Assembly: GCF_001186125.1 (NCBI RefSeq)
Contig: NW_014040484.1
Span: forward strand, 63,057-95,759
Origin: Sphaeroforma arctica JP610
Lineage: Eukaryota
Reading direction: 5' to 3'
Length of the DNA: 32,703 nt
In this document: piece after piece, positions 2,226-31,734 of the stretch
How the letters are laid out: the number at the start of each line of letters is the position of its first letter
How positions within the stretch are numbered: position 1 is the stretch's first letter
Notes under the pieces: generated by a model
Database searches by the model: none
What the model saw: the letters and a program-made list of their open reading frames with translations, nothing else
What the model was told of the DNA's origin: nothing
Position numbers and translations under genes: made by a program

Positions 2226-2984
2226 TGTAACTTTCGGTCTATCAAGGCGATATTAACGCCTTAAGAGTAATTAAACGCTTAGGTTAAGTCTAAGTATTGT
2301 TAAATTCGAAATAAATAAACGAAAAATGTCTTGTAGTAAAGTTATGTATGCCTCGTGAAAACAGCAATACTCTGAGGGATTGTGAGGCTGAGACATTGCC
2401 TATATATAATCCTCTCAGTACTGTTTTCGCCGAAGGGATTTTATTTAATGTTTCGTCTATTAGAATCTATGGCATGTTTCGTTGGGGCGAATCCGAGAGA
2501 CTCATAAAAACCTATCTTTAGAAAAAAAAGAATAGAAAAAATAAAAAATACTCTTGATGTCCATAGTTAGTGCATTAACCAATAACTTGCCACTTATCAA
2601 GAATTACCGACTTAGCCTTCATCAGACTGGCACATCTGGTTGGCTGAACGGAGGATAAACTAGATACCGTTAATAGTCCTTAGAAACCTATGTTCGGTTG
2701 AGCCATCTCGCTACCTAAGTATTCAGATATGAATTAATTTGGAAAGTAAATATAGTTCTATTAATAGAACTAGACCAAATCTAATGTTTGGTATTTTACT
2801 GGGGCCTTTTAATGGCCTTGTCCAAATATCTGATATGTAAAATGGAAAAGGTATTAATTAATGAAACCGTTAAAACCCATTTAGGAAACTAAAGTTCCTA
2901 GTACTATTAAGTGTACGTTTATAGTTTACGTACAGCTTAAGAGTACGTTTATAACATAGAGTCTATTGTGGAGGCCCGGCTTAA
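2226..2984 (-). mobile_element. Family-B LTR copy (solo or relic), ~760 bp
   Basis: Starts TGTAACTTTCGGTCTA and is colinear with the LTR at 22230-22920 (e.g. GGCTGAGACATTGCCTATATA, CTTGCCACTTATCAAG, AAAACCCATTT). Strand is given relative to the sense of the family-B element. Confidence 0.75.
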
Positions 2985-2986
2985 CC

Positions 2987-3121
2987 AATCCGGCTCTGTG
3001 CTATGATTGTAACGAATACGTACATGTTCACATTGCTCGACTACCACACCTACGGCTGTCTCTGCCCTGTCGGCCCCGGTAGCCACAAGTTCACTACCAG
3101 CCACTTTACCTGCACCCAACA
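2987..3121 (+). mobile_element. Short fragment of the LINE-like family, inverted relative to 3762-3842
   Basis: ATCCGGCTCTGTGC.ATGATTGTAACGAAT and CCCGGTAGCCACAAGTTCACTACCAGCCACTTTACCTGCACCCAACA are the reverse complement of 3762-3842, with ~55 extra bases between the two blocks. Confidence 0.65.
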
Positions 3122-3126
3122 GGAGA

Positions 3127-3263
3127 CTTAGGTTCCTCGAACTATTAAGAGTACATTTAGGAAACTTAAGTTCCTCGAACTATTAAGAGTACGGATATAA
3201 TTTGTGCACTGCTTAAGAGTGCGTTTATACATATAGTCTAATGTGGAGGCCCGGCTTATTACA
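3127..3263 (-). mobile_element. Family-B LTR terminal fragment with a short internal duplication
   Basis: Matches 2880-2984. GTTCCTCGAACTATTAAGAGTAC occurs twice. Ends GTGGAGGCCCGGCTTATTACA, which reads TGTAATAAG... on the - strand, a TG LTR start. Confidence 0.6.
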
Positions 3264-3272
3264 CGACAACCG

Positions 3273-4384
3273 TCAAGCTAAAGGCCCCATAAGCAGTATG
3301 TGACAAGCGTGCCAATAAAGACTAAGTAGAGTACCCACCTCTGTGATACGGATCGGGTCTGCGCCGTGTAGTGCCGCGGAATGGGCTAGTGCAGAGTACG
3401 AAATACCGAGAAGGACCAGGTTATCCGTCATAATCCGGTCGAGAAGCGAGGATGGGGGTAAGCCATTGCCGCACCAGACCACGGATGAATTCGGTATGTG
3501 TTGGCTGGTNNNNNNNNNNNNNNNNNNNNGATATTTGGAAGTAAGTATTTCAACAGCGTGATTAGCCGGGGTATGGGGAACATCTGTTGATGTGTCAGGG
3601 ACGGGTGAGGGTACGGTGGTTTTTAAACATGCTGGAGAAAAGATCCAAGGTGTTCGTGGAGGGTTCAGATACCGTGGAAGTCGTGGCACTCCTGTAATTG
3701 CTGAAGAAGGTCAGGGCCAATGGGCGGCAGTTTCGGGCCTACCAGGATGCGCCGAATCAGTTGTTGGGTGCAGGTAAAGTGGCTGGTAGTGAACTTGTGG
3801 CTACCGGGTCATTCGTTACAATCATGGCACAGAGCCGGATTTGTGTAGGCTCGAAGCAGCGATTGAAGCTGTCTTGTCTGGCTGTGTCTCGGTTTGAGGT
3901 TGGCGGCTCACCCATAACCAGTTGGTAGTAGTATTGGCGCCGGGCCATTGCCGCGATCTCCTTGTTGAACCAACGATTTGTTGAGTTCTTCCTGATGTCG
4001 TCACAGCGTTGGCGGAGGGCTACATGGTCGGGTGTACGCCCGCCCGTGGTTTTGTGTACAGTTTTCAGGTGATCATAGATACTGTACGGGAAGCGCAGTG
4101 ATGGTTTATCGTGGGCCCAGGCGGGTTGCGTCAGAGGGGTAAGTAGATTTGTGCTTGCCAGTGAGTCGAGTTGTATTCCCAGGCAACCTCCGAGGTAATC
4201 CGCGAATGGTCGCGCGGGGAGCAGGCCGCAAAAGTGAAGTAAGTTTATTTGATATTTTGGAAACCGAGGGTATTTAGTGCCCGTGATGATGGCTGCTGCT
4301 TGGATGAGTGCTGAATTAAAGCGCTCGAATATGGGGTCCAATGCATCCTTCCATATAGGCGGAGCCCAGGCAATAATGTTCAGC
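3273..4384 (-). mobile_element. Probable non-LTR retrotransposon (LINE) ORF2 C-terminal fragment; spans the N gap at 3510-3529
   Basis: ORF 3757..4431 contains IIAWAPPIWKDALDPIFERFNSALIQAAAIITG...CGLLP, resembling the post-RT thumb region of LINE ORF2 (W...L.R....AAR.ITG...GL.P). ORF 3273..3689 is homologous to ORF 5357..5686. Confidence 0.5.
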
Positions 4385-4713
4385 CTTGATAGTGGCAAGT
4401 TATTGGTTAAGACAATAACTAATGACGTCAAGAGTATTTTTATTTTTATTTCTTTTTTTCTAAAGATAGGATTTTATGAGTCTCTCGGATTCGCCCCAGA
4501 ATAGAGCGCCAACGAAACACTAAATAAAATCCCTTCGGCGGAAACAGTACTGAGAGGATTATATATAGGCAATGTCTCAGCTTCACAATCCCTCAGAGTA
4601 TTGCTGTTTTCACGAGGCAAACCTAACTTTATTAAACGTCACACTATAGAATTTACCTACGCGTTTATTTATTATAAGGCATTAGTATCGCCTTTATTAG
4701 ACCGAATCTTACA
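4385..4713 (+). mobile_element. Family-B LTR, 3' half, inverted relative to 2226-2600
   Basis: Reverse complement of 2226-2600. Contains TATATATAGGCAATGTCTCAGC and ends GACCGAATCTTACA. Confidence 0.75.
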
Positions 4714-5034
4714 GTCGTAGGTTGGAGATCAAGCTGTGCAATCCCGATTCTTATGGTTTTAAATACCAAAATGAACTTATTAACACACTCACTCACTAGC
4801 ATCGTGGTTTCTTAACCAGCAGACAAGGAATGGTGAATGGCCAGGAGGCAGGATAGTACGGTTACAATGGTCTGAGTGCTATGTTTGTGGGAGTGACAGT
4901 CGTTCTCAAGACGGTTAATTCGCTTGAGTTATAAGTTGCTGGATTGTGGTGTCAGTATGTGAGAGAGTTTCTTGTAAAGAAATTACCCTGGGTGAAGATT
5001 TAGGACCGGACCAGAGGGCCCGACATCTTGGTAA

Positions 5035-5706
5035 TCCCAAAACTGCCTCTCATTGGCCTTAACCTCCTCCAGAAATTACAAGAGCGCCACGACGTCCACG
5101 TTATCTGGACCCTCCACGAACACTTTGGATCCTTTCCACAGCATGTAGAACAACCTCGTACCCACACCCGTTGTCTCTGACACCTCAACAAATGTTCCTC
5201 ATACTCCGACTGATCACGCTGTTGAAGTGCTACTTCCAAATTTCGGTCCAAACCAAGTCATCGCACCTGTTGGTTTCGTCTATGATACTTCCGATCCAGG
5301 CCAACCAGCACATACCGAGGCAGCATTGTCTGGTGCGGCATTAATTCACCCTAACCTTGTTCCTCAGCCGAATTATGTCGGATAACCTGGTCCTACTCGA
5401 CATTTCGTACTCTGCACTAACCCACTCCACCGCACTACACGGTGCAGACCTGATCCGTACCACAAAGGTGGGTACGCTATTTAGTAGGCCAGCAAGCGTA
5501 TATGTGGCACACTCGATGGTGTCAGATTTTTGTCAGCACCGGCCTGAATTGACCCAGCGCATATCCTCCATCGATGACTCACTTGGCCCAAGCTTCAAAC
5601 GGGAATTTACTGACCACTTCTTCTCATCGATCTTCCTTGAACCACTACAACTGCTACGAGAACCACACCATGTGTACATACATTGAAACTTATCTCCTTT
5701 GAAATA
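5035..5706 (+). mobile_element. 3' end of the same LINE-like family
   Basis: RIMSDNLVLLDISYSALTHSTALHGADLIRTTKVGTL (5357..5686) matches RIMTDNLVLLGISYSALAHSAALHGADPIRITEVGTL (3273..3689). The 3' part matches 9444-9636, which ends in a (TAAA)n tail. Confidence 0.55.
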
Positions 5707-5786: not shown

Positions 5787-6120
5787 TGTAGCATCTAGGG
5801 ACCCCAGATTATCAAAAAGCGAATCCAAATTCCAAACCCTCAGAGTCATCAAATATTGACTTTTGGAATTAGGATTCAAATATTCCTGATCTTAGAGTCA
5901 TCAGAAATATTAGCGGCAGAACAGGTGAGCTATACCGGAACACTGCGTGTGAGAGAAACACTCAAGTAGAAAACTTGAGTCTAGTGAATTAGCAAACACA
6001 AATAAGACACAGTTCAGTTCTCTCAGACGAGGGACTTTTCCTAGCTGAGATAATCGTACTTGATAAGAGGTATATTGTATCCCTTGACACGTATCTTTCA
6101 GCTACTCTCTATGCTCGACA
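5787..6120 (+). repeat. 5' LTR of the family-A element
   Basis: TGTAGCATCTAGGGACC...CTCTCTATGCTCGACA (TG...CA). Homologous to 14704-14995 and 24958-25266. Confidence 0.92.
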
Positions 6121-6723
6121 TTTTTTACTATATTCTTACTGAGATAAGTAAAAACAAACTCACGTAGTATTGCCAAACTATAAGTGAGAAATCAAAATAG
6201 TTGTCAGGGGTCTGGATAACGCTACTTTATTGCAAAAATTTAAGTAATAAGAAGATTAGGTGCTAAGACGAGACAGGACCAAGGATGTACCGGTTGATAA
6301 ATATTATCCGGCTCACGGGAAGCTAGAAGAAAGGAAGAAGAGTAAGCCAGAAGGAGACGCTCTCTCGCACTAAAACGACGAAGGAGCACAATAGGATAAC
6401 GTTTCAAAAGTGTTGTGTGAACAAAGGGGAAGAAATCCCCCCAAGTGTCAAGGTGATAGAATTATCAATGTTGGGGATGGTTACAAAAGCGTGAAAATTA
6501 TGATTTAAAAATGTCACTTTGATTTCGTACAAGAAAATTCATAAGAATAGAGCACGGTGCATTCACGCGGTATCAAGTAAGCCCAAATAGACCTATGTGA
6601 CTGGGACGGTAGCCAAGAATCTCGAGCACATATTCACAGGATAAAATATCTAGATATACTAGCTCGATTCTCAGGCAAGCAATATCAGAGACCACTTACC
6701 ACAACAGCTGAAATATATAGCTG

Positions 6724-7001
6724 GGAACATCTATGTACCTCATGAGAAGAGGATTACATTAGTAAGCATTCAATCTTGTAAACAACCAGACGAATCAATC
6801 TAGTCAATAGTATAATATGCAAGTGACCTGAGAGGACAACTACCACGAACAAACTAGGCATAGGAACATCTATGTACCTCATGACAAGAGGAGTTCATTA
6901 GAAAGTATTCAATCTTGTAAACAACCAGACGAATCAATCTAGTCAATAGTGTAATCCACAGGTGACTTGAGAGGTCAACTACCACGAACATACTAGACAT
7001 A
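6724..7001 (+). repeat. Tandem duplication, 139-bp unit x2, in the element's 5' leader
   Basis: GGAACATCTATGTACCTCATGA at 6724 and 6863, colinear through AACTACCACGAACA. Confidence 0.88.
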
Positions 7002-7829
7002 GACAAGACTAAGGCCTACCAGCAACAAATACGAGTTCGGGGGCAAATCTTTGAACACTATAGAAGTTCCTAGAGAACGAAATTAGCACATCAAATGCGA
7101 TAACAACTAACAATAGGAAATCAAGGTAACATTAACATATGTAGTCTGAGTTAGGACAATTACAAATGGTAGGACGGAAGAAACACGTCCAAGCACAGGA
7201 GCAATAACTATTCAAGAGCCAAGGACTCAGAAAACGGCACGTAACATCAAATCTGGCGAAATCATTGCCAGAACAAGAACAAAATTACTAAGATCACAAG
7301 ATTAATAATAAGTTAAACCAACACTAGTATTCAAGAAGACGATACACAAACAAAAATTACAATTATCATACAGAAGTTTAAAAAGAATCAATGATATATA
7401 CGATCAGCTTTAGACAGGCATATATGAGATCGAAATTAGATTCCATGGGTCACGTGCACACTAACATCTAGCAGAAGAGCCACATAGTAAAGTTATTATA
7501 AGGCTCACGCACCAACAAATAGTAATCAAAGAGAGTTTAAGTATCGAGTATAACTAGTCCAGAAACAGATAACCCAAAAACAACTTTCATGATGCAAATA
7601 GCATCAAATACATGAATGCGGGAAGTCAAACGGATCGAAGTGACACAAATACGCTGACACCATAACCAAGCATACACATTAGCAATACGCACATGTACCC
7701 CACATGCACAAGAATGAAAAGATTTAAGAAACAGTTCGTTTAATTCGACCACACAAGAGCAATTAGCTCAACATTGTGCAATACACATAAGAGATCACAA
7801 CCAAAAGGACTATGAGTTCAAGGAAGTGA

Positions 7830-8141
7830 AAATCTTAGGCAATCACATTTTCCAGAGAACGAGGAAAGCAAGGTTAAGGAATTATACGAGGCATAAGTAC
7901 ATCTAAGTATCAAGAATACATGTACTTCGTAAGAATAGTTCATAAACAATCACATCAGGAGTTGAGCAAGATAGAACACAACGAAATCTTGGGCAATCAC
8001 AAGTTCCACAGAACGAGGAAAGCAAGGATAAGGAATTATACGAGGCACAAGTACAACTAAGTATCAAGAATACACGAACATCGTAATAATAATTCATAAA
8101 CAATCACATCAAGACACACACTTGAGTAAGATTGAACACAA
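7830..8141 (+). repeat. Tandem duplication, ~154-bp unit x2, in the element's 5' leader
   Basis: AAATCTT.GGCAATCACA...GAACGAGGAAAGCAAGG...AAGTATCAAGAATACA...TTCATAAACAATCACATCA at 7830 and 7984. Confidence 0.88.
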
Positions 8142-8907
8142 AACCTGCCAACACAGACACAGAATGAGAGTGACATAGATAAAAGGCTGTCAGAACGATC
8201 AGTTTAGACCAAAAAATAACGGATACAAACCATCTCACACTTGTAGTTTAATACAGAACAAACATCGAGTGAGTTCAATAATAAGACCAGCACAAGTAAT
8301 TCAATCCGAGACTAAGAACAAGGGTACAGTTAAGGCCTGAAAGACGAAGGCGAGAACATCACCAGCGTGTATCACAACGTGGCACCGCACGACAATCAAG
8401 CAATTACTGGGAACATATCAGGTACATACTGTAAACGCAGTTCGTGACATGACAGATGATCTTATCACCAACACAGTTCGACATAGAACCGACCATAACA
8501 GGTGACATCACCATCAAACCAGTTTGGTACAGGACCAAACATCAAGAGGTGACGTCAACATGACCGAACATCTCATTGAGATCACATGGGAAAATAATTA
8601 TCATAGGACGAAATAAACACAAGTCTACATATGACGGAATACGCTTGACTAACAAACACCAAATTAACCCTCCCAATCACAGGAAGGAACGCAACAAGCT
8701 ATCGTGCCACACAGGACGGTAAAAACTTTACACGGAAGTGCAGCAAAGCGAGACCACACTAACAGTAAGTAAAACAACTTCAAATTTTATTTATTTTATA
8801 TTAATCATTAGCAAAGACAAGGGGGGTAAACCGCGCATTCGCACAGAATATTGCCTGGGTCTTTACGTATCACCTGCAATACCCACACACCAGTACAGAC
8901 ACTTCAA

Positions 8908-10450
8908 GATGCCAACAGCAACCAGAGGAGGGGTGTATAGGGCTAACGAAAGTGGTGTGGGTACGGATGGGGCAAGTAGTAGCCCGGTAGGGGGGGCAAG
9001 CCCTGGCAGTAGCTCAAGTCAGCCTACACCAGGGGGGGGATGTCCATACTAGCTTCAGCAATGCGTTTATAAATAGACAAGAGCATCTGTCAAGGCACCC
9101 ACGTCCTGGTTAGTAGATTTTTTTCCAAATTGTAACAGACTGCACCGGTGCCTATAGCCACTCTACACAAACAGTCAGAGCGACGAATGCCAATCGTCGA
9201 CACAGTACTCAGAAGACGATATGATTTAGCAATTAATGAGTGTGGTAACGATGAAGAAGATAAACTTATCCAAATCAGTCAGTATATCAGTGAGTTATAA
9301 CTCTTGCGTTCACGCTTAGACAATAAGATAAATGAACCTGCACTTTCGAAACTACTAGAGATCTCATAATTTCCGAAGCTACCTAATAATAGTTACTTTA
9401 AAATGAAAAATCATGAAGACATTATAGAGTTCACTACGGCAAGACCGGCCCGAATTGACTCAGCGCATATCCTCCATCGTCGACTCACTTGGCCCAAGCT
9501 TCAAACGGGAATTCACTGACCACTTCTTCCCATCGATATTTCCCGAACCACTACAACGGCTATGAGAGCCATGCCATATGTCCATACATTATAACATACA
9601 TACATTGTAACTTATCTTTTTAAATAAATAAATAATGTTTTCCCTGTTCTTAGCCCCAAGTCTATGCCACTGTGTCAGTACCCAACACTAGCGAGATATC
9701 TATTGGACTCCAGTGATGCAACGGAGAAGACCAAGGCAGTGCTCATTGATTTACGAGACTCTGAAACACAGATGACCAAGCATTGTAAAGATCCTGAACA
9801 ATTCAATAGAATCATTATCGATAGACTCAGACACCATCCAGTAGACTAACTGTTAGAGAAATTTCTCAATGACATGCAGAATAAGACAGTGAATGTAGAG
9901 GTGCGCACAAAGCGATTGCATACAGCACTGTACGTGTTAAAGGAACGTTACCTCAACTCGGGACAAAGAGCCTATACACTTGCAAATCGTCAAGGTCGTA
10001 AAATACCAAGCACTTACGTACTATGGACAACAGAAGAAAGTAGACACCATCATCAAGGCAGACAAACATCCTGATGGAGGTGAAGGCCATTTATCCGATA
10101 TAAAACATATGTTTCACTCTCTCACTTAAGCAACCATAAGAGCAGCAGCCAAGGTGCAGGCAGATCGGTTGTATAGAGAGTGCAAGCGACACAGCTCGCA
10201 GACATCCAGTCAAAGCCAGTCTCAGAGTAGCACAACCACTACGACCAAACAACACAAACCGGACAACGGTGCACCTAAGCAAATCAAACCGAAAGGGGCG
10301 CGCGAGGAGCGCATGTTCTTATTGCAAGGTGATGCCATACTCACATCGTTTCGAATCAGGCCAAGCAGGCTGAAGAGCGTGTCAAGTACAAGATTATTTA
10401 TTACCTCCGGCAAGGTAGAAGACATCACAGATGGTGATGAACACTGAAAC
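8908..10450 (+). pseudogene. Decayed gag of the family-A element, interrupted by a LINE fragment
   Basis: Broken ORFs (MPTATRGG..., 9664..9849, 9874..10074, 10154..10447) lie directly upstream of the protease. There are possible degenerate Cys/His knuckles near 10105-10210. The call is mainly positional. Confidence 0.55.
9444..9636 (+). mobile_element. 5'-truncated LINE-like insertion nested in gag
   Basis: Highly similar to 5538-5706 and ends in TAAATAAATAAATAA. No TSD could be identified. Confidence 0.7.
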
Positions 10451-11110
10451 AACAGGTGGGCGGACGCAAACATGATTGACCTGGCTGACAGGCTTAATGT
10501 AAGTACAGATGAAGAACCGTTGTTAATAAATGCAAATGATATAGATTACCAACCTTTATCCTTACTTCCCGCATCATGAGACCTAAGATTACACATTGAC
10601 ATCAATACACTAGTAGACTTTGGCGCGCAACGTTCATGTATGGACAGGAGTATAGTAGCTGAACTATGCATCTCTGTCAGAGCACAACCGGGCTATATAC
10701 AACTAGCACAAACATATGCCAGAATACAAAGAACAGGGTCAACCCAAGTATGTGACATTAATTATGGAGGAAGACAATCCTCTCAGTGTTTTGAAGTGTT
10801 GGACCTACCAGACAAGAAGGCACCAATACTTCTCGGTATGGACATTTTACCATACGTAGGTATATACATAGCAGGATTAATCAATTCACTTATACCAACA
10901 GTTGGAAAATGGGAATCACTTCTCACGCCACATGGAAAAGATCCTGAGCACGAACAAGAAGGATTCAGAGAGTCACTTGCAAATCTCTTAGATATCAATG
11001 CGAACATACCTCCTATCGTACATTGCAACCTACCGGGCTCCACAGTCACAGTACCTGCGGATGAAATAAATGTCCGACAAACGAGGCACGCCAAAATCAA
11101 CTTCGTACCT

Positions 11111-11289
11111 CACAAGTATATCCCGCAAACGGATGAAAACGTAGAAAAGTGACTTACAGATGGTCACATATAAAAACGAACCACACCGACAACGGTGAAC
11201 ACAAGTATATCCCGCAAACGGATGAAAACGTAGAAAAGTGACTTACAGATGGTCACATATAAAAACGAACCACACCGACAACGGTGAAC
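11111..11289 (+). repeat. Exact 89-bp tandem duplication inside pol
   Basis: CACAAGTATATCCCGCAAACGG...ACAACGGTGAAC at 11111 and 11200. Confidence 0.92.
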
Positions 11290-12559
11290 CTACCATTGCT
11301 ATCAACAGCTGAATATGACCAAACAGGTCTTCTCAAGAAATTAAGAACATTTTTAGACTTACGAGAGATCAACTACCAATATGAACAAGATAAACTCGTG
11401 CTATCAATAGTAAAGGAAGTAATACACAGCCTATAAGGAGCACAATTCTTCTCAAAGTTAGATCTCACATGATAGTTCCACCATTTCCTAGTAGACGAAG
11501 CAGGCCAGCACTTCTTCACGTTCTCGTGGAGAGGAGCGCAATACTCATTCAAGTCAGCGCCGTTTAGCCTACGCTCACTCACAGCACAATTCCAACGAGT
11601 CATGACAAACTTGCTCATAGACATCAAAGGTGTGCAAGTTTTTGTAGATGACATAGTCAGTGCGAGTCTTATTTAAGAGGAACACCGCAAGACAGTTTGT
11701 GAAGTAATCAAGCGACTGAATGGAGCAAACTTCCGACTCGATCACAACATGTGTGCCTTCGCGGTCAAAGTGGTCAACATCCTAGGGGTGAAAGTCACCA
11801 CACAAAAACTCAAAGCGGATCCTGAGAAACAAAAAGGGATGATGGACTGGTCACAACCCAGAACAAAAAGAGATTTACACAAAGCGGTGGGACTCGCGAA
11901 TTATATGCGTGACCATGTCCCCAACTTTGTCCACACAATTAACACTTCCGGAACCTAATAAAAGAGAAAATGAACCGCATGCTTTGGACTCTGGAACTCA
12001 AAAAGAAGTGGGAAGAATTCAAAGAAGCCATCGCATATTCGTCGACACCAGCATACCCTGATGATAGGGTATCGTTTCAAGTCATGAATGATGCTAGTGA
12101 CTATGGCATAGGACGATGCTTATTTCAAGTCATCGATGGGGTTAGGAGAGATATTCTCTACTTTTTCAAAGGCTTGAATCCAGCACAACAACGCTATGGC
12201 ACAAATACTAAGAAGCTACTAGCACTGGTATACAGCCTGGAACATTTCTCCAAATACATCAAAGGAGGGGACAGAACACTGTGGACAGATCATAAAGCGA
12301 TCACGCAAATGAACAGTCAACAGACGTTACGCCGAATACTAGCCAAATGAATAGCGAAAACATCCCACCACCATTTCTCCATCATACACGTCCCAGCAAG
12401 GACAACCAGATGGCAGATTTGTTGTCACGTCTACACGAAGACACGTTTGATACTAAAACATCCGAGGTATTAAAAAACGCGAACAAAACAACACCTAACA
12501 GCCAAGAGTACCTAACCTTGGAGACTAACATGCCCATAACTGAACCATATCAGAAGTTA

Positions 12560-12930
12560 CATCTCGGATTTTACAAAGAAACTGAAAGACGGTTTGGGAA
12601 GTTCACAGTAGATCTGTTTGTATCGGCACACAATGCACACACCGATAAATGCTACACCAAAGAACAGAATGCGCTTCTACAGAAGTGAGCGCAGGAAGTG
12701 AATGCATGGGCGAACCCACCATGGGAACTCATACCGGATGTCCTTGAAAAAATCATTGAAAAGGCAACCAGCAAGCATCACGATATGTGTATCATACTAC
12801 CCCAATGCAACGTGGTTCGAAAATTGTCTTTACTAGAAGTGGTCCCGATGCTAGTGGAAAACACAAACAATATGTTCTCAAAGAAGGCACGAAAGCATGT
12901 GGCAAGACCCCATGGGGTGTCACATTAGTA
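12560..12930 (+). pseudogene. Dam-like DNA N6-adenine methyltransferase domain within pol (family A)
   Basis: RFGKFTVDLFVSAHNAHTDKCYTKEQNALLQK*AQEVNAWANPPWELIPDVLEKII, then after a frameshift ASITICVSYYPNATWF. DLF is at 12611-12619 and NPPW at 12713-12724. Confidence 0.85.
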
Positions 12931-14099
12931 GCAAAGATAGGGGTGAAGTCTCCATACTTTGACTCAATGCGGGAACAATCTGCCATACATGTTGCAGCAT
13001 CACATCCAGTTCCATCTGGAGATGAGCCACATGTAACAGAATACGGGACACGTGTCAACAACTTAAGACATTGCACTCCCGAGGAAGCGGTAAACAAGTT
13101 GCAAACAGAAGGACATGATTGGCCACAAATTCAAAAACATGTACACAAGTTCATCGAAGGATGCGTACCATGTCTCAAAAATAAGGCATACAAGAAGGGA
13201 TTCCATCTCTTACAATCAATCACAGTGTATTTCCAGACGACAGAGTCCAAGTGGACACTATTGGGCCTCTATTGGACTTAACAGAGGACACACATATGTG
13301 TTAGTATGGCTAGATGTACACTCATCATATACCATACTACGTCCACTACGACAGCGCGTACGCTGGTACCAATCATGTGTGAACATGCGTTCCCACAAAT
13401 CCTACAGACTGACCAAGGCACTGAATATGTTAACAACATACTTTCAAAAGTTGTTGAACAGGCGCCGACACAACACCTAGTCTCTCGACCGTACCAACCT
13501 AATGTCTTAGGCGCGAACGAAAGATTACACAAGGACCTCATTCCACTGTAACGAAAATACGTTGTGCAAAACCCAGGTAAATGGTGTTCTCGACTTCCTT
13601 TCGTACAGATGGGCCACAATCTCCGTACATCAAGAAGACACATGTCACCACGATTAAATGTGTACTTTGGTCGCAGACATAATCAACTCACGGACTACAA
13701 CACCCCAGTAAACGCACACTGTACAACAGTATCTTGGGAAGAGCGACTGTAGCATCTAGAAGAAGCCATTAGGCCACAACTAGAGAGCAACGTTGCGCAA
13801 TATCAAGCGAAGATGCGCGCAACATACGACCAAAAATACCAAAAGAAAAATGTACACTTCCAGGAAGGAAACATTGTCATAGGTCCACTATCAAAGTGAA
13901 ATGAACAGGATGACTGTACCATATGGCGGACCATACAGAATAGTATGCAGGGAGGACAACGGGTATTTTGTCTGTAAACTTGATGGGACTAAATCCCCCG
14001 AATATCCTGACTCGGCCAGTGATGAGCTAATTGGACTCGTAAAAAGGGCTAATGTTCTGGAAGCATTTACTTCTAATAGTCACGTACAACCAACCGAGG

Positions 14100-14250
14100 A
14101 GACTCAGTTCTTCTCAATAGTCGACGACAGGCCGTCCATCCAAGGTGATGGATCCCAGGAGTATCTACTACATTGGACAAATGGGGAGCGTACCTGGACG
14201 CATGAATCCGACATTACAAACGCTGATGTCCTTACACTATACCGTCAACG
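14100..14250 (+). other. Chromodomain at the integrase C-terminus
   Basis: FFSIVDDRPSIQGDGSQEYLLHWTNGERTWTHESDI fits the chromodomain pattern I..R...YLxxW...TW. Confidence 0.75.
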
Positions 14251-14687
14251 CACTGGCGCAAATGAAGGCAGTCAAGGCAAAAGAAGCCAGCATCAGCGAG
14301 CAGCAGAAAGCGCACAAGGCGGGGGACCTAAGCAAGTCTTACTGATACCAAGGGACACTCCCGCATTTCTCGCCTTGAAGCATGCTCCGCCCACACACCA
14401 TAGGGATAAGGACCAAACACTCGGCCGTATAGCCACCATTGAGATGCGTTTTCCAATGCCAAGTTGAGATCAACCGAGAGCACCGGTCAAGACTGACTGC
14501 GACGAGCTTGGTAAAGAACTCTCGTCATAGTATAAATTTTATTAATAGGTGATATGTAAGAATATATAATGGTGGCAGGTTTTTCATCATATGCCTAAGG
14601 GACAAGTTTTCCCTGTACAAAAACACCAACCTCTAGATAATCTCGTACCGTATGATGTCACTTTCTACTCCTACGCAGGCTAAGATG

Positions 14688-14703
14688 CAAAAAGTTGGGG
14701 GAC
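14688..14703 (+). promoter_or_regulatory. Polypurine tract of the family-A element
   Basis: AAAAAGTTGGGGGAC immediately precedes the TG of the 3' LTR. Confidence 0.75.
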
Positions 14704-14995
14704 TGTGGCATCTAGGGACCAGATTATCAAAAGCCAATCAAATTCCAAAACCTCAGAATTACCAAATATTGAGTTTTGGGATTAGAATTCGAATATTCCT
14801 GATATTAGAGTAATCAGAAAGATTAGCGTTAGAATCGGTAAGTTATACGGGACACCGCGTGTGTGAGAAATACTTCAGTAGAAAACCTGCGTCTCTCTCA
14901 GGCGAAGGACTTTTCCTAGCTGAGATAACCGTACTTGAGAAGAGGTCTATTGTATCCCTTGACATGTATATTTCCGCTACTCTCTATACTCTACT
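14704..14995 (+). repeat. 3' LTR of the family-A element
   Basis: TGTGGCATCTAGGGACC...CTCTCTATACTCTACT (terminal CA mutated to CT), followed by the TATG TSD. It has an internal deletion of ~40 bp relative to the 5' LTR. Confidence 0.9.
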
Positions 14996-17304: not shown

Positions 17305-17720
17305 TTTAGATATCGGTCTAATAAAGCTGTATTGACGTCTTTAAGCTGAAACGTATTGGTTTCATATTAATAAACAAAGTATTGAGAGTAGTCGGTAATA
17401 AAATTAAGTACGCCTTGTGAAATCAACAATTTTCGGTTGAGCCATCGCTCTACCGTATATATATACATATTTATATATATATATATANNNNNNNNNNNNN
17501 NNNNNNNATCTTGGAAAGTTTTAATAAGCATTCTAATAGGCCTACTCTAAATATAATCATTAGAATATTAATAGGCTTTTGAATGGGTCTAATCCAAATA
17601 TCTGATTTGTAGAGTGTAAAAGTTATTTTCAAATTAATAAAACCGGCAAACCCCATTTGGGTAGACTTAGTTTACGTACTACTTAAGAGTAAGTTTATAT
17701 AGATAGAGTCTGACGTGGAA
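17305..17720 (-). repeat. 3' LTR of the family-B element (degraded; spans the N gap at 17488-17507)
   Basis: ATATCGGTCTAATAA...GCC.[T/C]GTGAAATCA.CAAT and AAACCCATTTGGGTA..CTTAGTTTA match 22230-22920. Confidence 0.65.
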
Positions 17721-18199: not shown

Positions 18200-20560
18200 A
18201 GCGAGTAAAATTTCTGTAGTCGGAATACGACTAGTGCCTTTATTAAGCGCACAACAACCATTGGGGTTATTTGCCGTCGTAGATTATACTTTTAGTGTGT
18301 ACATATGGGCCTAACCGTTTCGTTATTAATACAGTAGCATCGTAAATACGTTGTCGGACATTCACTTTGTCGCCCACCTGATACCCTGCAATCTTCTTGG
18401 AATTATTTTATCTATTTTGCCATTTTACTAAAGCTGAAATTGTTTCTTGCAAGCTAGAATATACAACGTGATATATACGTTGTATCTTTTCTAACCATGG
18501 TAGCTCATGGCGATTATGTCCTTCCTTGCTATATGGTATTTTAAACTCACTATGGTTGCCACGACAATGGTGAGCGGGTGTTCTTCCTGTAACCTGATCA
18601 GCACATTCGTTCATTTGTGCTAGTGACGATTTAAAATGGGGCTGCCAATCGTCTCGTCATCCGTTTATGCAGTACGCAGGAGGAACTTCAAGTCTTCTAT
18701 GGTGTGTTCCATTCGCGTCTTGCATTTGCGGTGTATATGGTACACCTCTCTTATGGCACATGCCGGATACGAGTACTACTGATTCCATCACGTCATCAGA
18801 TAACGCGCTACCGCTATCAGAGCACGCAAAACCTGGTCGTCCGTGGTGAGAAAAGACTTGGTAGCATAATTCTGCCACGGTCTGCGTGCTCTTATCATTT
18901 AAATGATAGAGCAAGTGAAACTGTGACGCCACATCAAAGAAGTGGCATATATAACGGTCGCCTGTATGTTCGGACGTGGGCAGGTCAATCAAATCAAAGA
19001 TGACCCTGCGCCATGGAACACTATCGGTCACACTCTTAAGTGATGCGAACCCATAGCGCTTTATCTGGTTGTGATCACAGTGTGTAAATGACTGATATAC
19101 TTTGTTCACTTTTGTTGCTCACTTAAGATGTGCCATTCTATTACACTTGATCGTTAAGTGCTTTTACTATATTCTGGTGCTTGAGCTTATGATTTTCCGT
19201 AGGCCAAGTGATGATGTTATCATTATTCTGCACTTCCAAAACAAAGGTAGTGTTTTCATACCCCGTACTAATTGTGTTTGAACATATTTGCGCTCATATA
19301 CATATGATACATTCGAATTATTTAAAAGTCTTATGTGTGTATATACTTCGGGATTAGAAGGGTGTCTGAAAAACTTAGGGAATCGACTTTATAGTATTGA
19401 ATGAAGGTTTAGCTAGAGATTTACAATTCTTAAGAGCTTGATGTGTAGTATATTGTATACGTTTACTTCATTGGAGAGTGAAATATCCGACTACGTGACC
19501 TTTTTAAGGAAGGTCTTAGAGGGTGGCCATGTAGTTGTACCTACAGGATTTGTACGACATATTATAGTATGACTCTAGGGAGTCTTTTGGGCTACTTGAA
19601 TACCCTGATAGAGGAAGGTGTCTACTTCCCTATCGAAATAGATCGGCTCACATATGGTATCATGATTATTAGCTATTGAACCACGGATCTTATTTCAGGA
19701 ATGATCAAAACAAGTTATGGCAGCTTTGTGTATTTGAACATAGTTAAGTAATTGGGCAATTAATTGCCATGGTGGGTTAGCCCACGCGTTATGTATAAAG
19801 ACATGTATTTGAAACATATATATCTATGGATGATTTCATGTCATATATTCTTTAGCTGCGTGTTTTGATACACGGCAAACATATCAATATTTTGCGGCTC
19901 AATATCTTTTGAGCAAGCTCAGATCATATACTAAGAACTCTCGTTCTAACTTATTAAAGTCTGCTACGAACTTGGATAACACATTCGGTAAATGGTTATG
20001 TATCCCATGTATATGTTTTATATCAAAGTGAAACTTGGATATCGTATTATGCATCTACTCATTAATCGAGAGTCTGGTTTTGTCTTATTCACATATTGAC
20101 GTGATTTCTGATCATTCATCACCGTAAATGCTGTTCCGTAGAGGTAATTTCTAAAGTGGTTCGTATCTGATATTATAGCTAATAGTTTTTGGTTTACAGT
20201 TGCATAATTCAACTGTAAAGCGTTCATAGCTCGATTAAAGAACTGTATATATAGATTTGTTGTATATTATATAGAACTCCTCCCAAAGCTAAGTCTGATG
20301 CGTTTGTTACTATTTCAAATGGTGCGACATCGACTGGCCCTTGAACTGTCGGAGTTTGTTGGACGGCATGTTTTCAGGTTTCAAATGCCTCGTCACAATC
20401 CCTTGCCCATAGCTCTCCTAGTTCACCTTAGTGACATCTAAAATGTCCAAGAAGTTTTAGATGATCTGCTAGACGTGGAAGCCCTTCTGAATAAAAAATT
20501 ACGAATCCACACAGGCTATTTACAAATCTAACTGTGGTTGGCGAGGCGAGTCAGATGAAC
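18200..20560 (-). pseudogene. pol: Family-B pol remnant: RT thumb, RNase H, Dam-like MTase, integrase
   Basis: LCGFVIFY (~20500), PFEIVTNASDLALGG (~20280-20325), NYATVNQKLLAII...FTVMNDQK (20018..20227), GIHNHLPNVLSK (~19972-20007), PWRRVIFDLIDLP...SDSGSAL...PYTPQ (18657..19109), YQVGDKV...LGPY (~18300-18390). Confidence 0.85.
19660..19930 (-). pseudogene. Dam-like DNA N6-adenine methyltransferase domain within pol (family B)
   Basis: On the - strand: NIDMFAVYQNTQL (DMFA at 19874-19885), NAWANPPWQLIAQLLNYV (NPPW at 19767-19778), then LIIPE and PWF after frameshifts. Confidence 0.82.
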
Positions 20561-21299
20561 GTTTTTCTCGTGAGTCCGGCGGCCCGTTAATGTAATTACG
20601 GGTCATTCCTGATGTTGATTCCTATCACATACATGGCTAGTATCTGATATCAGTGTGGCTTGACGTCCCTGGTTATATCAGGTCGGACCAAGTCAGAATC
20701 GAGCTTTGAAATGCAGCTCAAGATAGAGGTGTTCGGAGTTGGCGGTGCCAGGATCGAACATAATACCGGACTGTGCATATCCTTGCTCAACAAGGGAGTC
20801 ATTGGCCAAGATACTTCTGGCGAAGTGTGACAAGGCTTGATCTCGTCATTGTGCTTGTGGAGAGCTCGATAAGTGCTTCCTTCCGGGTTAAATGACTGCA
20901 TTAATGTATGCACCCATTGCTAAGAAGCAATGTCGGTAAGTCGCTGACATCCTAGTAAATGCGTTTAGAGTGCGAGTTGAAGTCCAGGTCATGGTTGTTG
21001 ATAAACTCTGGCCTGGTAGAGTTTTCGTCCAGTTCGACTTAAGTTGGCTGATCGAACCCTTGTACTTTTAATTGCCGCTGTTGTCTTGACCTCGTTGCAC
21101 TTGAAGCAACTGGACTTGGCGTAGTAGCCGACCTCTTACAGATGTACGAAGTTTGCTTTACTCGCTCGCTTTCTACCCTTGCTTCCCCTTCGGTTAAATC
21201 CAAAGTCAAGGGGTGAAGTTTCGCGACGTTCGTCGGGTTACTTGGGCGATACGATGTAAATGTCGTTCTTACTAGCATATATTCTGTCAGTAAGCTTCG

Positions 21300-22130
21300 T
21301 CTTATCAGATGTCGTCGTAGTACGGGATGGTGTGTCTGGAGGTGTACGTTAAACTTTCATAGGATCAATAGTGCCCTCGAGCACCGGTTTCTGTACTGGT
21401 AGCCCGTGTAAACGAGCTCTCTCTGGATTGTTTTCAACTTGTCTCGCTCGCTCAGAGTCTTCAAGGGCGAAGCAAAAATTGCGACACCACGTTTCTGAAT
21501 ACCTGTTAACTCATACTTCGAGACAGCGTATTCCGAGATTTCTCTTGCTTGTTTGTGGCTAGTCCATTGATCAACGCTGCGGTAGTGTCGTTAGAGAAAT
21601 CTTCGCGTAAGTGTATTGCCTTTTCACCAGATTCATACATTCGATCTACGTGTTCGGCTGTTTGATCTTCTTTAGCGAGTTTCAACTAAAGAGCTGCTAA
21701 CTAATTCTTAAATAGTTCTTTATGGGCTCGGTCGTTGATTCAGCTGAGTCTTGAGGGCTCGTCACTTCATCATCCACCTTCTGTGTCTGGTTCGTCTCGG
21801 TTTTCCTCACCGATCACCTAGACTGGGACCTTCTTTGATGAACAGTATGGCTTGCTTTAAAAACCCTGGTCTCACTTCGATATTTCGTAAATGTGGTTCC
21901 GAAGCAGTTGCAATAGCTGGCCCTTGGGCCCTTTCTTCGGGAGACTTCTCTCTTGGTGGAGTAGCCTTATTTTTCTCTGAAGTGTTCTCCTGGCTGGTCG
22001 AGCCTGCAACAATGGCTTTGGCAACTGCTTTGTTAACTTCTTTGACTGCAGCGGCTGCGGCCCTTCTTTTCCGTTTTATGCTTCGTGGAGGTAGTAAAAT
22101 CTTTGGTGCTCTTCATCATCTTAAGTATAT
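21300..22130 (-). pseudogene. gag-like remnant of the family-B element
   Basis: An open frame of ~100 codons on the - strand (IKRKRRAAAAAVKEVNKAVAKAIVAG...) lies just inside the 5' LTR. The call is positional only. Confidence 0.45.
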
Positions 22131-22229
22131 AAGTCTAGTTATAAAACAAATGGAGTAAGAAAACATCTCTGGAGTGAAATACCATAACGTTTAAGCAGCT
22201 CACGCTCAATATTTATGCTGCCTTCAAAA

Positions 22230-22920
22230 TGTGGAAATATCGGTCTAATAAGGCGATACTAATGTCTCGAAGCTGTAGTGTATTGAGTTTGTGTTGTACT
22301 TTTTAATACAAAAAAAAATGTACGAGAGTAGCCATAAGTAAAGTTAGGTATGCCTCGTGAAATCAGCAATAGTCTGGGGATTTAAAAGGCTGAGACATTG
22401 CCTATATAGAATCCTCACAGAACTGATTTTGCCGAAGAGATTTTATTCATGGTTTTGTCGTCGTCTTGCAAAACTATTACTATGCTTCATCGGGCGAAGT
22501 TGAGAACTAACAATATCCTATCGTTAGAGGGAAAAAAAAGACAAAAGAAAAAATACTCTCGATGTCCCTAGTTATTGTATTACTATACTAACCAATAGCT
22601 TGCCACTTATCAAGGATTACCGACTCGCCATTATCAGATTGGCGATCTGGTATGTAACGCTAATAGTCCCTGGAAACCTCTTTTAGGTTGATTCATCTTG
22701 CTATTGAAGTATTCAGATATATGTTGCTTTTTTGTGTGGATAATTTAATAGCCCTTTTAATAGAGCTACTCCAAATGTGATCTTTGGAATTTTAATAGGC
22801 CTTATAATGGGTCTACTCCAAATTATTGATTTGTAAAGTGGAAAAGGTACTAAAATGGTTAAAACCCATTTGGGTAACCTTAGTTTATGTACTGCTTAAG
22901 GGTACGTTTATTAACATAGA
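22230..22920 (-). repeat. 5' LTR of the family-B element, outer end truncated
   Basis: TGTGGAAATATCGGTCTAATAAGGCG... on + (CA end on -). Colinear with 2226-2960. TATATA at ~22403-22408. Confidence 0.8.
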
Positions 22921-22924
22921 GGTG

Positions 22925-24860
22925 GCGCGACTATTCATCACTAGTGAAAGAGTTGTATCGAGAAGCGGATTCGATTGCATAGACAATTTGTGCAGAACCC
23001 CAGTAAGCTACTTACGAACAACAACAAACAAGAGACAGTTGGCGGTGCCAATGTGTTTTTGTAGTCAAGACAGTCAGTATATTAGGCGTCAAAGTCGCCG
23101 TACAAGGGCTCAAAAAAGACACAGAGAAACAAAAACGCATGAATGACTGGCCACTACAAAGCACTAACAGGAACTTGCACCGAGCGGATTAAAACTCTAA
23201 CATCGTTTCATTCATTGGTTGTCAAAGTGAGTTTTTGCCCAAGACAGAAGAAAATGTACTTAAAATGCGTTCGCGCGAGGTAGCACGATAAGTGTGTTTA
23301 AAAAAGAGCCGTGTGAGGCATTGACGACCGACATGGTAGTGGACATTACCTTTCGGGGCTTGACATCGTATGGTAAATAGCCATGTGAGGCATTGATGAC
23401 CGACATGGGAGTGGACATTACCTTTCGGGGCTTGACATCGTATGGTAAATGCGCCTAAAAAGTATGAAAGAGTTGATATGACAAGCGGATTCGATTGCAT
23501 AGACGATTTGTGCATAACCCCATCAAGCTACTTACAAATAACAACAAATGTGCATTTGTAGTCCAGACAGTCAATATATTAGGCATCAGAGTCGCCATAC
23601 AAGGGCTAAAAAAAGACACAGAGAAACAAAAACGCATGAATGACTGGCCACTACAAAGCACTATCGGGAAATTACACCGAGCGGATTAAAACTCTAACAT
23701 CGTTTCATTCATTGGTTGTCGAAGTGAGTTTCTGCCAAGATAGAAGAATATGTACTTAAAATGCGTTTGCGCGAGGTAGCCCGATAAGTGTGTTAAAAAA
23801 GGAGCCGTGTGAGGCATTGACGACCGACGTGGGAGTGGACACTACCTTTCGGGGCTTGACATCGTATGGTAAATGCGCCTAAAAAATATGGAAGAGTCTA
23901 GCAGACCGAAAATAGACATTAGTATGGCGCAATATTTAAAATAATAAATGCGCGCAGCATACGACCGCAAATACCAACAGAAGTGCATACAATTCTAGGA
24001 AGGGGACATTGTAATTGCTCGCTACAAGATTAAATGAATAAAATGCCAAGCTAAAATGAATAAAAGAGAAAGCAAGGAGTGCGATGGGTATTTTATCTGT
24101 AACCTTGATGAGACTAGAGTCCCAGAATATCCTAAATTGGTCAGTGATTAACAAATCGGACTCATAAAAAGGCTAAAGCACAGGAAGTATTCATCCCCAA
24201 CCGCCAAATACTAACAACTGAAGAGACACAATTCCCATTCGTATTAAACCATCTAAGCCATTCAACCGAGATGATGGGTATCAAGAGTACATACTACAAC
24301 GGACAGATAGATAACGCACCTGGACACGCGGGACAGACATAGGAGATGTTTATATTTTTACACTTTACCGACAACACATACGACACAAACGAAGCCAAAC
24401 CAGGCCGCAAAAGCCAACAGCAACAAGCACGAATGAACGATCAGCGAACAATAAAAGCGCACAGGGCGGAGGACAACCCAGTTTCACTATCACAAAACAA
24501 ATTCCACGTCTGATTTACCTTGTAGCATGCTCTGACCACAAACCAGAGTGATAAGGACCAAAGTCTCGACATAACAATCACTGTTGAGAAGTATTCTCTC
24601 GAACACGTTTTTCATCATAACCCCCTTTTCCTTGTCTTAAAATACTAAACACAAGAAACCAAAGTACCATAAGATATCACTTCCCACCACTACACATGCT
24701 CAGAAGTGCAAAAAAATTTAAGGCCACAAAATATCAAATACTGAGTTTTGGGTCCGGATCCAACATTTCTGATAAGAGTCATCATAATATAGCGGTATAA
24801 CCTGTAGACGATACCTGCACCCCGCGTGTGGGAGAAACACTCGAGTAGAATTTGTCTATT
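22925..24860 (+). mobile_element. Heavily deleted relic related to family A (RT-thumb fragment, integrase tail and chromodomain, 3' UTR, partial LTR)
   Basis: KCAFVVQTVNILGIRV...DTEKQKRMNDWP (23495..23689) matches 11749..11958. 23925-24715 is colinear with 13795-14700. 24725-24860 resembles the family-A LTR. Confidence 0.75.
22945..23896 (+). repeat. Two-copy tandem block (~520-bp period) with an internal ~72-bp duplication
   Basis: TGAAAGAGTTG...AAGCGGATTCGATTGCATAGAC at 22945 and 23465. GTGAGGCATTGA.GACCGAC...TTGACATCGTATGGTAAAT occurs three times (~23312, ~23385, ~23808). Confidence 0.85.
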
Positions 24861-24957
24861 GAATAAAAATAAAACATTAAAAAGACAATGCAAATCCCGC
24901 TAAAAGATACGCACTTGAGTTGCACATTGTTTTCTTTGATCAATCTTTTCAGCAACT

Positions 24958-25266
24958 TGTAGCATCTAGGGATCAGATTATCAAAGAGCCAATCCGAATC
25001 CCAAAACCCAGAATACTGAAATATTGAGGTTTGTAATTAGGAATGAACATTTCTGATTTCAGAGTCATCAGAAAAATCGGCGGTAGAACCGGTAGGCTAT
25101 ACCGGGACTCCGCGTGAGAGAGAAACATTAAAGTAAATCCTGAGTCTAGTGAAAACACAAAAAAAAGAATCAGTTCGGTTCTCTCAGACTAGGGACTTTT
25201 CCTAGCTGAGAAGAGGTCTATTGTATCTTTTGTCTCGTACCTTTCAGCTACTCTCCATACTCTACA
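24958..25266 (+). mobile_element. Solo LTR of family A with 4-bp TSD AACT
   Basis: TGTAGCATCTAGGGATCAG...CTCCATACTCTACA, flanked by AACT at 24954-24957 and 25267-25270. Confidence 0.9.

Positions 25267-27739: not shown

Positions 27740-31734
<3,995 letters not shown>

What the first reader, a model, noticed from the sequence alone, without database searches (positions are those of the whole stretch)
19660..19972. A second, distinct Gypsy family carries the same MTase at the same position
Seen: on the - strand, right after the RNase H end (GIHNHLPNVLSK), come NIDMFAVYQN, NAWANPPWQLIAQLL and then LIIPE/PWF, followed by the integrase. The eight residues NAWANPPW are identical to family A and the DxF-to-NPPW spacing is similar (107 vs 102 nt). 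Yet the LTRs look unrelated (~760 vs ~330 bp) and the RNase H and integrase sequences are very divergent. Inference: the MTase is an old, conserved module of a whole clade of LTR retrotransposons rather than a chance capture, and conservation of the catalytic motif suggests it was under selection.
Basis: partly seen in the sequence, partly recalled or inferred. Interest (0 to 1): 0.85.

Follow-up and report, generated by a model that had tools for sequence, protein, structure and literature searches.

The report
Decayed Gypsy element with Dam methyltransferase
A broken copy of a Gypsy-type jumping gene carries an adenine-methyltransferase domain between its RNase H and integrase, shared with a second family in the same window and likely inherited from one old capture, but a 2026 preprint has already described this kind of element.

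Summary
Family B (minus strand) has a Dam-type (PF05869) N6-adenine methyltransferase domain at 19928-19545, between RNase H and integrase, as family A has at 12554-12951. Similarity runs well beyond NAWANPPW (motif masked: score 72 against 25±3 for 60 shuffles). Intact relatives exist for both families (P0002/P0003; P0012). In trees, A and B fall in one supported Dam clade that includes Abeoforma whisleri proteins, and the same elements form one RT clade (100/97). One old capture is therefore the best reading, although an AU test on the Dam domain alone does not reject separate captures (p 0.12). This copy is dead: frameshifts, stops, protease and RT core missing. The host is likely a Sphaeroforma-like ichthyosporean. 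The kind is already in print: bioRxiv 10.64898/2026.05.21.726589 defines DAM-LTRs, with an ichthyosporean lineage, and this scan has met such elements on other DNA. Activity is unshown. Small additions here: the clade ends in a degenerate chromodomain, which the preprint says it lacks; the closest solved fold is the RNA enzyme PCIF1; and two Ty1/Copia polyproteins with Dam turned up, which the preprint's main text does not mention.

The parts
19545..19928 (-). Family B Dam-type N6-adenine methyltransferase domain, broken (5 frameshifts and 4 stops by my count on the alignment)
   Evidence: Collinear with intact P0012; 60% identical to it over 108 columns; tblastn E 8e-10 with P0002 Dam
19877..19885 (-). 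DMF, the DxF motif; its role in SAM binding is inferred from family knowledge
   Evidence: D29 and F31 nearly invariant in 63 aligned domains
19767..19790 (-). NAWANPPW with the NPPW catalytic-type motif (19778-19767)
19545..19649 (-). C-terminal part of the domain, homologous to family A independently of the NPPW motif
   Evidence: motif-masked alignment, score 72 against shuffles 25±3
19971..20544 (-). End of RT (connection) and RNase H of family B
   Evidence: Pfam RT_RNaseH E 2.6e-13; 54-56% to P0012
17946..19227 (-). Integrase (zinc finger, core) and C-terminal region of family B, broken
   Evidence: 170/424 identical to P0012 905-1340; Pfam rve E 0.0045; 69% to Sphaeroforma arctica SARC_07241
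20545..21040 (-). Gap where protease and RT core should be; no match, so likely deleted in this copy
   Evidence: P0012 residues 1-380 find only a score-34 match in 20500-22250
21091..21108 (-). CFKCNE, likely the start of a Gag zinc knuckle; gag remnant inferred for about 21040-22150
   Evidence: sequence; no Pfam hit for the piece tested
22230..22921 (-). Upstream LTR-like repeat of family B, ending in CA on the minus strand; outer end not found
17310..17708 (-). Downstream LTR-like repeat of family B, interrupted by an assembly gap (17488-17507)
   Evidence: 69-75% to 22237-22921
12554..12951 (+). Family A Dam domain (comparison), NAWANPPW at 12701-12724
   Evidence: Pfam Dam E 6.8e-12; tblastn to P0002/P0003
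5787..14995 (+). Family A element (comparison): LTRs 5787-6120 and 14704-14995, purine tract 14689-14702, candidate 4-bp target duplication TATG, pol 10469-14328
   Evidence: LTRs 84% and 90% in two blocks; ends; pol

Best explanation
This is a dead copy of a Ty3/Gypsy LTR retrotransposon whose Pol carries a Dam-type adenine-methyltransferase domain between RNase H and integrase, likely inherited with family A from one old capture and predicted, in intact relatives, to methylate the element's own newly made DNA. Shown here: the domain order protease-RT-RNase H-Dam-integrase in intact relatives, the methyltransferase fold of the predicted model, the intact NPP[WF] motif, and matching Dam and RT clades. 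Inferred: the domain came from a DIRS-type element, where it follows RNase H; as part of Pol it would be packaged in the particle beside the cDNA; it would place 6mA on the cDNA or RNA:DNA intermediate; host AMT1 would maintain the mark after integration and keep the new copy transcribable. That last chain is the preprint's model and is untested. My odds: identity and architecture about 0.95, single capture about 0.8, self-marking of cDNA about 0.5.
For: Intact single-ORF relatives: P0002/P0003 for A and P0012 for B (196/388 identical over RT end-RNase H-Dam; its Pfam Dam score 26.2 is just under the 28.1 cut-off). Dam tree of 76 rows: A and B in one starred 19-row clade, 100/94, with two Abeoforma whisleri proteins. 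RT tree: the 11 members with RT are one clade, 99/98, and 100/97 with L001 added under a mixture model. Of 25 metagenome loci picked by RT motifs only, L001 carries Dam and falls inside the clade; L002, L007 and L018 have RNase H and integrase without Dam and fall outside. NPP[WF] in 19 of 19 clade rows. Model pLDDT 94.5; best predicted-structure matches are phage Dam proteins, E 1.6e-11, TM 0.79. Other genomic copies match B over the motif-coding stretches in 4 of 4 runs laid. The preprint reports more 6mA and more expression in DAM-LTRs of S. arctica and A. whisleri.
Against: The preprint found no rise in 6mA when eukaryotic DAMs were expressed in dam-minus E. coli. Iyer et al. judged DIRS1 MTase domains likely inactive. 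The closest solved fold is the RNA enzyme PCIF1/CAPAM (Z 10.4, rmsd 3.0, 135 aligned), ahead of E. coli and T4 Dam (Z 7.9). The 142-residue domain is all core fold, with no separate target-recognition domain evident. AU test: B-type Dam held with DIRS and outside-Gypsy domains is not rejected (p 0.121); the clade had only SH-aLRT 83 in that 36-row quick tree. RNase H+integrase tree supports the clade at only 82/83. The Dam bootstrap had not converged and had no phage outgroup. The protein set was drawn with a family-A profile, so it is biased towards A's relatives.
Confidence: 0.55

Rival explanations
1. The domain is active but works like PCIF1: it methylates adenine in the element's RNA (cap-proximal or internal) or the RNA strand of the hybrid, to stabilise or protect the transcript.
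For: Top solved match is PCIF1/CAPAM in both Foldseek (E 2.7e-4) and VIA-align (Z 10.4), followed by rRNA adenine methyltransferases. Iyer et al. place DIRS MTases in the PCIF1 clade. PCIF1 prefers ssRNA > hybrid > ssDNA > dsDNA (abstract), which would explain the negative E. coli DNA assay.
Against: Predicted phage Dam structures match far better (E 1.6e-11, TM 0.79) than viral PCIF1-like proteins (E 1.5e-4, TM 0.60). No Dam relative was found in the PDB by sequence, so PCIF1 may lead by default. DNA 6mA is raised on DAM-LTR insertions (preprint).
Confidence: 0.2
2. The domain is kept as a non-catalytic nucleic-acid- or SAM-binding module that helps reverse transcription or hand-over to integrase.
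For: Negative heterologous assay; Iyer et al.'s prediction of inactivity for DIRS versions; earlier scan notes, unchecked here, of Gypsy elements that keep the domain but lost the motif.
Against: 19 of 19 clade rows keep NPP[WF], and the DxF residues are nearly invariant in 63 domains, over RT distances of about 60%.
Confidence: 0.15
3. A-type and B-type elements captured related DIRS-type Dam domains separately, or swapped them later, at the same junction behind RNase H. This concerns origin and is compatible with any of the mechanisms.
For: AU p 0.121. The preprint counts at least four separate DIRS-to-LTR transfers, and my tree has Gypsy Dam domains in at least three places. A/B Dam identity (50%) exceeds their RT identity (41%).
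Against: The same elements form one clade in both Dam and RT trees with matching subgroups. No Dam-less locus fell inside the RT clade (3 placed, all outside). An A+B sister pair has no support in the Dam tree (22/59), and Dam identity is near RT identity in most other pairs.
Confidence: 0.15

Closest known systems
Ichthyosporean DAM-LTR lineage (Fernandez-Moreno et al., bioRxiv 10.64898/2026.05.21.726589, May 2026)
   Same: Ty3/Gypsy Pol with a Dam domain and Asn-Pro-Pro triplet; described from Sphaeroforma arctica, Abeoforma whisleri and Pirum gemmata. My clade holds two A. whisleri proteins, and B's integrase is closest to an S. arctica protein.
   Different: The preprint says the lineage lacks chromodomains; I find a degenerate chromodomain-like C-terminus (profile match 97.6%, E 4.7e-12). 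I could not compare with its sequences because supplements are closed. The window copy is a deleted pseudogene.
MT (Dam, PF05869) domain of DIRS1-type tyrosine-recombinase retrotransposons (PMC3783388; PMC5890265)
   Same: Same domain family, placed directly behind RNase H in Pol.
   Different: Here it is followed in frame by a DDE-type integrase, the element has a protease and direct LTR-like repeats, and its RT groups with Gypsy, away from DIRS-type RTs.
Phage Dam-like methyltransferases (PF05869, PHROG 111)
   Same: PHROG 111 E 6.8e-17; predicted structures TM about 0.8; 483 phage records match by tblastn.
   Different: Stand-alone phage enzymes; only about 24-38% identical in the 30 rows listed.
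PCIF1/CAPAM cap-specific adenosine methyltransferase
   Same: Closest solved fold (Z 10.4).
   Different: 13-17% identity; PCIF1 is a much larger host enzyme (about 480 residues in the solved chains) acting mainly on RNA.

Membership tests
DAM-LTR retrotransposons | Ty3/Gypsy-type RT, RNase H and DDE integrase rather than DIRS tyrosine recombinase | tested here: met
   RNase H and rve in the window copy; RT from intact P0012 groups with Gypsy. The window copy has lost its RT core.
DAM-LTR retrotransposons | Dam (PF05869) domain inside Pol | tested here: met
   A: Pfam E 6.8e-12. B: by homology to P0012, whose Pfam Dam hit is E 7.4e-6, 26.2 bits against cut-off 28.1.
DAM-LTR retrotransposons | Conserved Asn-Pro-Pro catalytic triplet with aromatic residue | tested here: met
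   NPPW in both window copies; NPP[WF] in 19 of 19 clade rows.
DAM-LTR retrotransposons | Paired LTRs with target-site duplication | tested here: inconclusive
   B is flanked by direct repeats 69-75% alike, with one end unseen and no duplication found; A has clear LTRs and a candidate TATG duplication.
Ichthyosporean DAM-LTR lineage | Dam domain groups with those of S. arctica, A. whisleri, P. gemmata | tested here: met
Ichthyosporean DAM-LTR lineage | Lacks a chromodomain (as the preprint describes it) | tested here: inconclusive
   No clade member reaches Pfam's Chromo cut-off (best 19.3 bits against 25.1), so the description holds at threshold; a profile comparison shows a degenerate chromo-like domain, also in A. 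whisleri P0010.
Ichthyosporean DAM-LTR lineage | Host is an ichthyosporean with AMT1-type 6mA | tested here: inconclusive
   Host inferred from one named homolog (69%) and clade membership; no genome is held; AMT1 not searched.
DAM-LTR retrotransposons | Raised 6mA and expression of insertions | not testable with these tools
   Needs methylome data; only assembled contigs were available.
DIRS1-type elements | Tyrosine recombinase, no DDE integrase or protease, inverted terminal repeats | tested here: not met
   rve integrase follows the Dam domain, and relatives have an aspartyl protease.

The most novel reading that the evidence does not exclude
The clade is an old chromovirus-like lineage that pairs an adenine 'writer' with a degenerate chromodomain 'reader'. 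Its enzyme acts on RNA or RNA:DNA inside the particle, PCIF1-style, not on duplex DNA, and the wider Gypsy Dam group has also passed the domain to Ty1/Copia elements.
Probability: 0.15. Interest if true: 0.7.

Novelty: already known. Interest (0 to 1): 0.27.

Why it matters
Retrotransposons that write their own adenine mark would be a way of exploiting host 6mA chromatin, and the substrate of this domain is still an open question. That idea and this lineage were published as a preprint in May 2026. This finding adds a worked example of two families about 40% identical in RT that keep the domain at the same place, and names intact natural proteins (P0002, P0012) suited to a biochemical test. 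The Copia cases seen in passing may extend the known range.

Tried and rejected
Word-indexed protein searches reached only P0002/P0003 (2 of 114 and 2 of 157 candidates) and one S. arctica protein (1 of 103); the HMMER search of representatives was needed. Viral contigs: 70 pattern matches, none a relative. Folding with 2 sequences failed (pLDDT 42.7); 63 sequences gave 94.5. Sequence search of the PDB found no methyltransferase. No RNA holder was listed among sequencing runs, which says nothing on expression. Contig depth is summed and is not a copy number; I use it only to show that other copies exist. Phage Dam hits were not added to the tree, so it has no outgroup. The Atlas search gave unnamed eukaryotic clusters and one with Dam in 14% of members; the Atlas look-up of ORF 3760-4473 did not complete. 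No earlier scan notes exist by place or sequence. Rejected: a chance motif; a DIRS fragment nested in a Gypsy copy, because intact single-ORF relatives have the same order.

Full report
Observation. The window is eukaryotic repeat-rich DNA with two decayed Ty3/Gypsy elements: A on the plus strand (5787-14995) and B on the minus strand (about 22921-17310). Family A's segment is a Pfam Dam domain (E 6.8e-12). B's segment is too broken for Pfam piece by piece (0 families for two pieces). It is hit by the Dam domain of an intact A relative at E 8e-10, and with the eight shared residues masked it still scores 72 against 25±3, max 37, for 60 shuffles. The domain spans 19928-19545, further than the finding's coordinates.

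Intact relatives. A search with A's domain returned P0002 and P0003, 1288-aa Pols ordered protease-RT-RNase H-Dam-integrase. A profile of their Dam domains matched 2984 representatives at E up to 0.001; the best 150 were kept. One of them, P0012, is an intact B-type Pol: 196/388 identical to B from the RT end through Dam and 170/424 over integrase and tail. Against it, the window's B copy shows 8 frameshifts in the first stretch and no match for protease and RT core, so it is dead. Contigs from 4 of 4 runs laid show many other copies that match B over the motif-coding stretches (19709-19803 and 19557-19651), with summed depth up to about 78,000 against 132 for the unique contig in one run; this is not a copy number. 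B's integrase has one close named relative, Sphaeroforma arctica SARC_07241, 69% over 70% of the query, and two clade members are Abeoforma whisleri proteins. The host is therefore likely an ichthyosporean; this is inference.

Trees. I sorted P0002 and the 150 hits with my own HMMs into 24 Gypsy, 42 DIRS-type, 2 Copia and 83 unclassified. The DIRS label rests on RT similarity and lack of integrase, not on finding a recombinase. The Dam tree used 76 rows, leaving out 77 of the unclassified (146 columns, bootstrap not converged, midpoint root). A and B sit in one starred clade of 19 rows (100/94) with no DIRS row in it. B pairs with P0012 (100/99) and A with P0002/P0003/P0005 (100/99); the order among subgroups is open. 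The 11 members with an RT form one clade in a 25-row RT tree (99/98), with similar subgroups. RNase H plus integrase, including both window copies, gives one clade at 82/83. As a test independent of Dam, I scanned metagenomes with RT motifs only. Of 25 loci, 1 has Dam, 4 have RNase H and integrase without it, and 20 show no integrase hit and are uninformative. In a 37-row mixture-model tree with 12 of the 25 (13 short, split or near-duplicate loci left out, L019 among them), the Dam-bearing locus joins the clade (100/97) and the three Dam-less ones placed fall outside. Against this: an AU test on a 36-row Dam subset does not reject holding B-type with DIRS and other Gypsy domains (p 0.121), and there the clade had SH-aLRT 83. 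The sample was also drawn with an A profile.

Selection and fold. All 19 clade rows keep NPP[WF]. Intact A-type and B-type proteins are 50% identical in Dam, 41% in RT, 38% in RNase H and 30% in integrase; between the close pair P0002/P0003, Dam is the least conserved domain (80% against 86-95%). This pattern fits a constrained core with a variable surface; no dN/dS was run. The P0002 domain folds with pLDDT 94.5. Its best predicted matches are phage Dam proteins (E 1.6e-11, TM 0.79). Its best solved match is PCIF1/CAPAM (Z 10.4, rmsd 3.0, 135 aligned), then rRNA adenine methyltransferases, with E. coli and T4 Dam at Z 7.9.

Mechanism. I commit to the reading that the domain, carried in Pol and so likely present in the particle, methylates adenine on the element's own cDNA or RNA:DNA intermediate, and that host AMT1 then keeps the mark so the new copy stays transcribable. 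Fold, motifs and position are shown; catalysis, substrate and AMT1 hand-over are inferred, the last from the preprint's model. The preprint's E. coli assay was negative, and Iyer et al. thought DIRS versions inactive. RNA-directed activity and a non-catalytic role therefore remain live rivals.

What is known. bioRxiv 10.64898/2026.05.21.726589 (whole main text read; figures and supplements not seen) reports DAM-LTRs as new, with five lineages. One is ichthyosporean, from S. arctica, A. whisleri and P. gemmata, with raised 6mA and expression. The Dam domain behind RNase H in DIRS is older knowledge (passages of PMC3783388; PMC5890265; PMC4738411). For PCIF1 substrates I saw the abstract of PMC9178792. 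A search for 'DAM-LTR' found only the preprint. Earlier scan notes on other DNA reached the same preprint; I had found it.

Small additions. (1) The preprint says this lineage lacks chromodomains. Nine C-terminal segments that I picked by position and weak hits align to a profile of four clear chromodomains at 97.6%, E 4.7e-12. Single members reach Pfam Chromo only weakly (E 0.015 and 0.0011), and the B-type version is the most decayed. (2) Two Ty1/Copia-type polyproteins carry NPPW Dam domains at different positions and are sisters within a starred 25-row group of Gypsy Dam domains. 'Copia', 'Ty1' and 'RVT_2' have 0 occurrences in the preprint's main text, and one paper search found nothing on it by title or abstract start; the supplements may cover it.

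Verdict. Real, correctly read, and already known as a kind. Interest 0.27.

Noticed in passing
proteins P0060/P0172 and P0065 (not in the window): Ty1/Copia-type polyproteins (RVT_2) with an intact NPPW Dam domain, after the protease in one and before it in the other; P0060's cluster has full-length members from two sources. Not mentioned in the preprint's main text.
   Followed up: partly
proteins P0025 and P0028: Gypsy-like polyproteins with an Exo_endo_phos endonuclease domain followed by Dam, both upstream of a very divergent RT; 'endonuclease' has 0 occurrences in the preprint's main text.
   Followed up: partly
window 14100-14250 (+) and C-termini of clade proteins: Degenerate chromodomain-like tail after integrase in the clade, including Abeoforma P0010.
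   Followed up: yes
protein P0075: Dam placed after integrase and a weak chromodomain, a further position for the domain.
   Followed up: no
window 27743-29645 (-): Likely host gene: PRP38 splicing-factor family (E 1.6e-9 at 29154-29645) with an Arg/Ser-rich frame downstream at 27743-28399.
   Followed up: partly
window 22945-25266 (+): Further family-A-like remnant: duplicated RT piece (22945-23378 / 23465-23874), integrase tail (23852-24455) and a third A-type LTR at 24958-25266. It abuts B's upstream LTR.
   Followed up: no
window 2226-2922 and 4385-4716: Two more copies of the B LTR-like repeat, in opposite orientations, inside an inverted-repeat block (about 2200-5500) with unassigned frames such as 3760-4473 that have no Pfam hit.
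   Followed up: partly
window 6121-6126 (+) and 22226-22229 (-): Both upstream LTRs are followed by a run of T, not the usual TGG primer-binding start (the usual pattern is recalled). Decay or non-standard priming; not tested.
   Followed up: no
window 11111-11288 (+): Perfect 89-bp tandem duplication inside family A pol.
   Followed up: no
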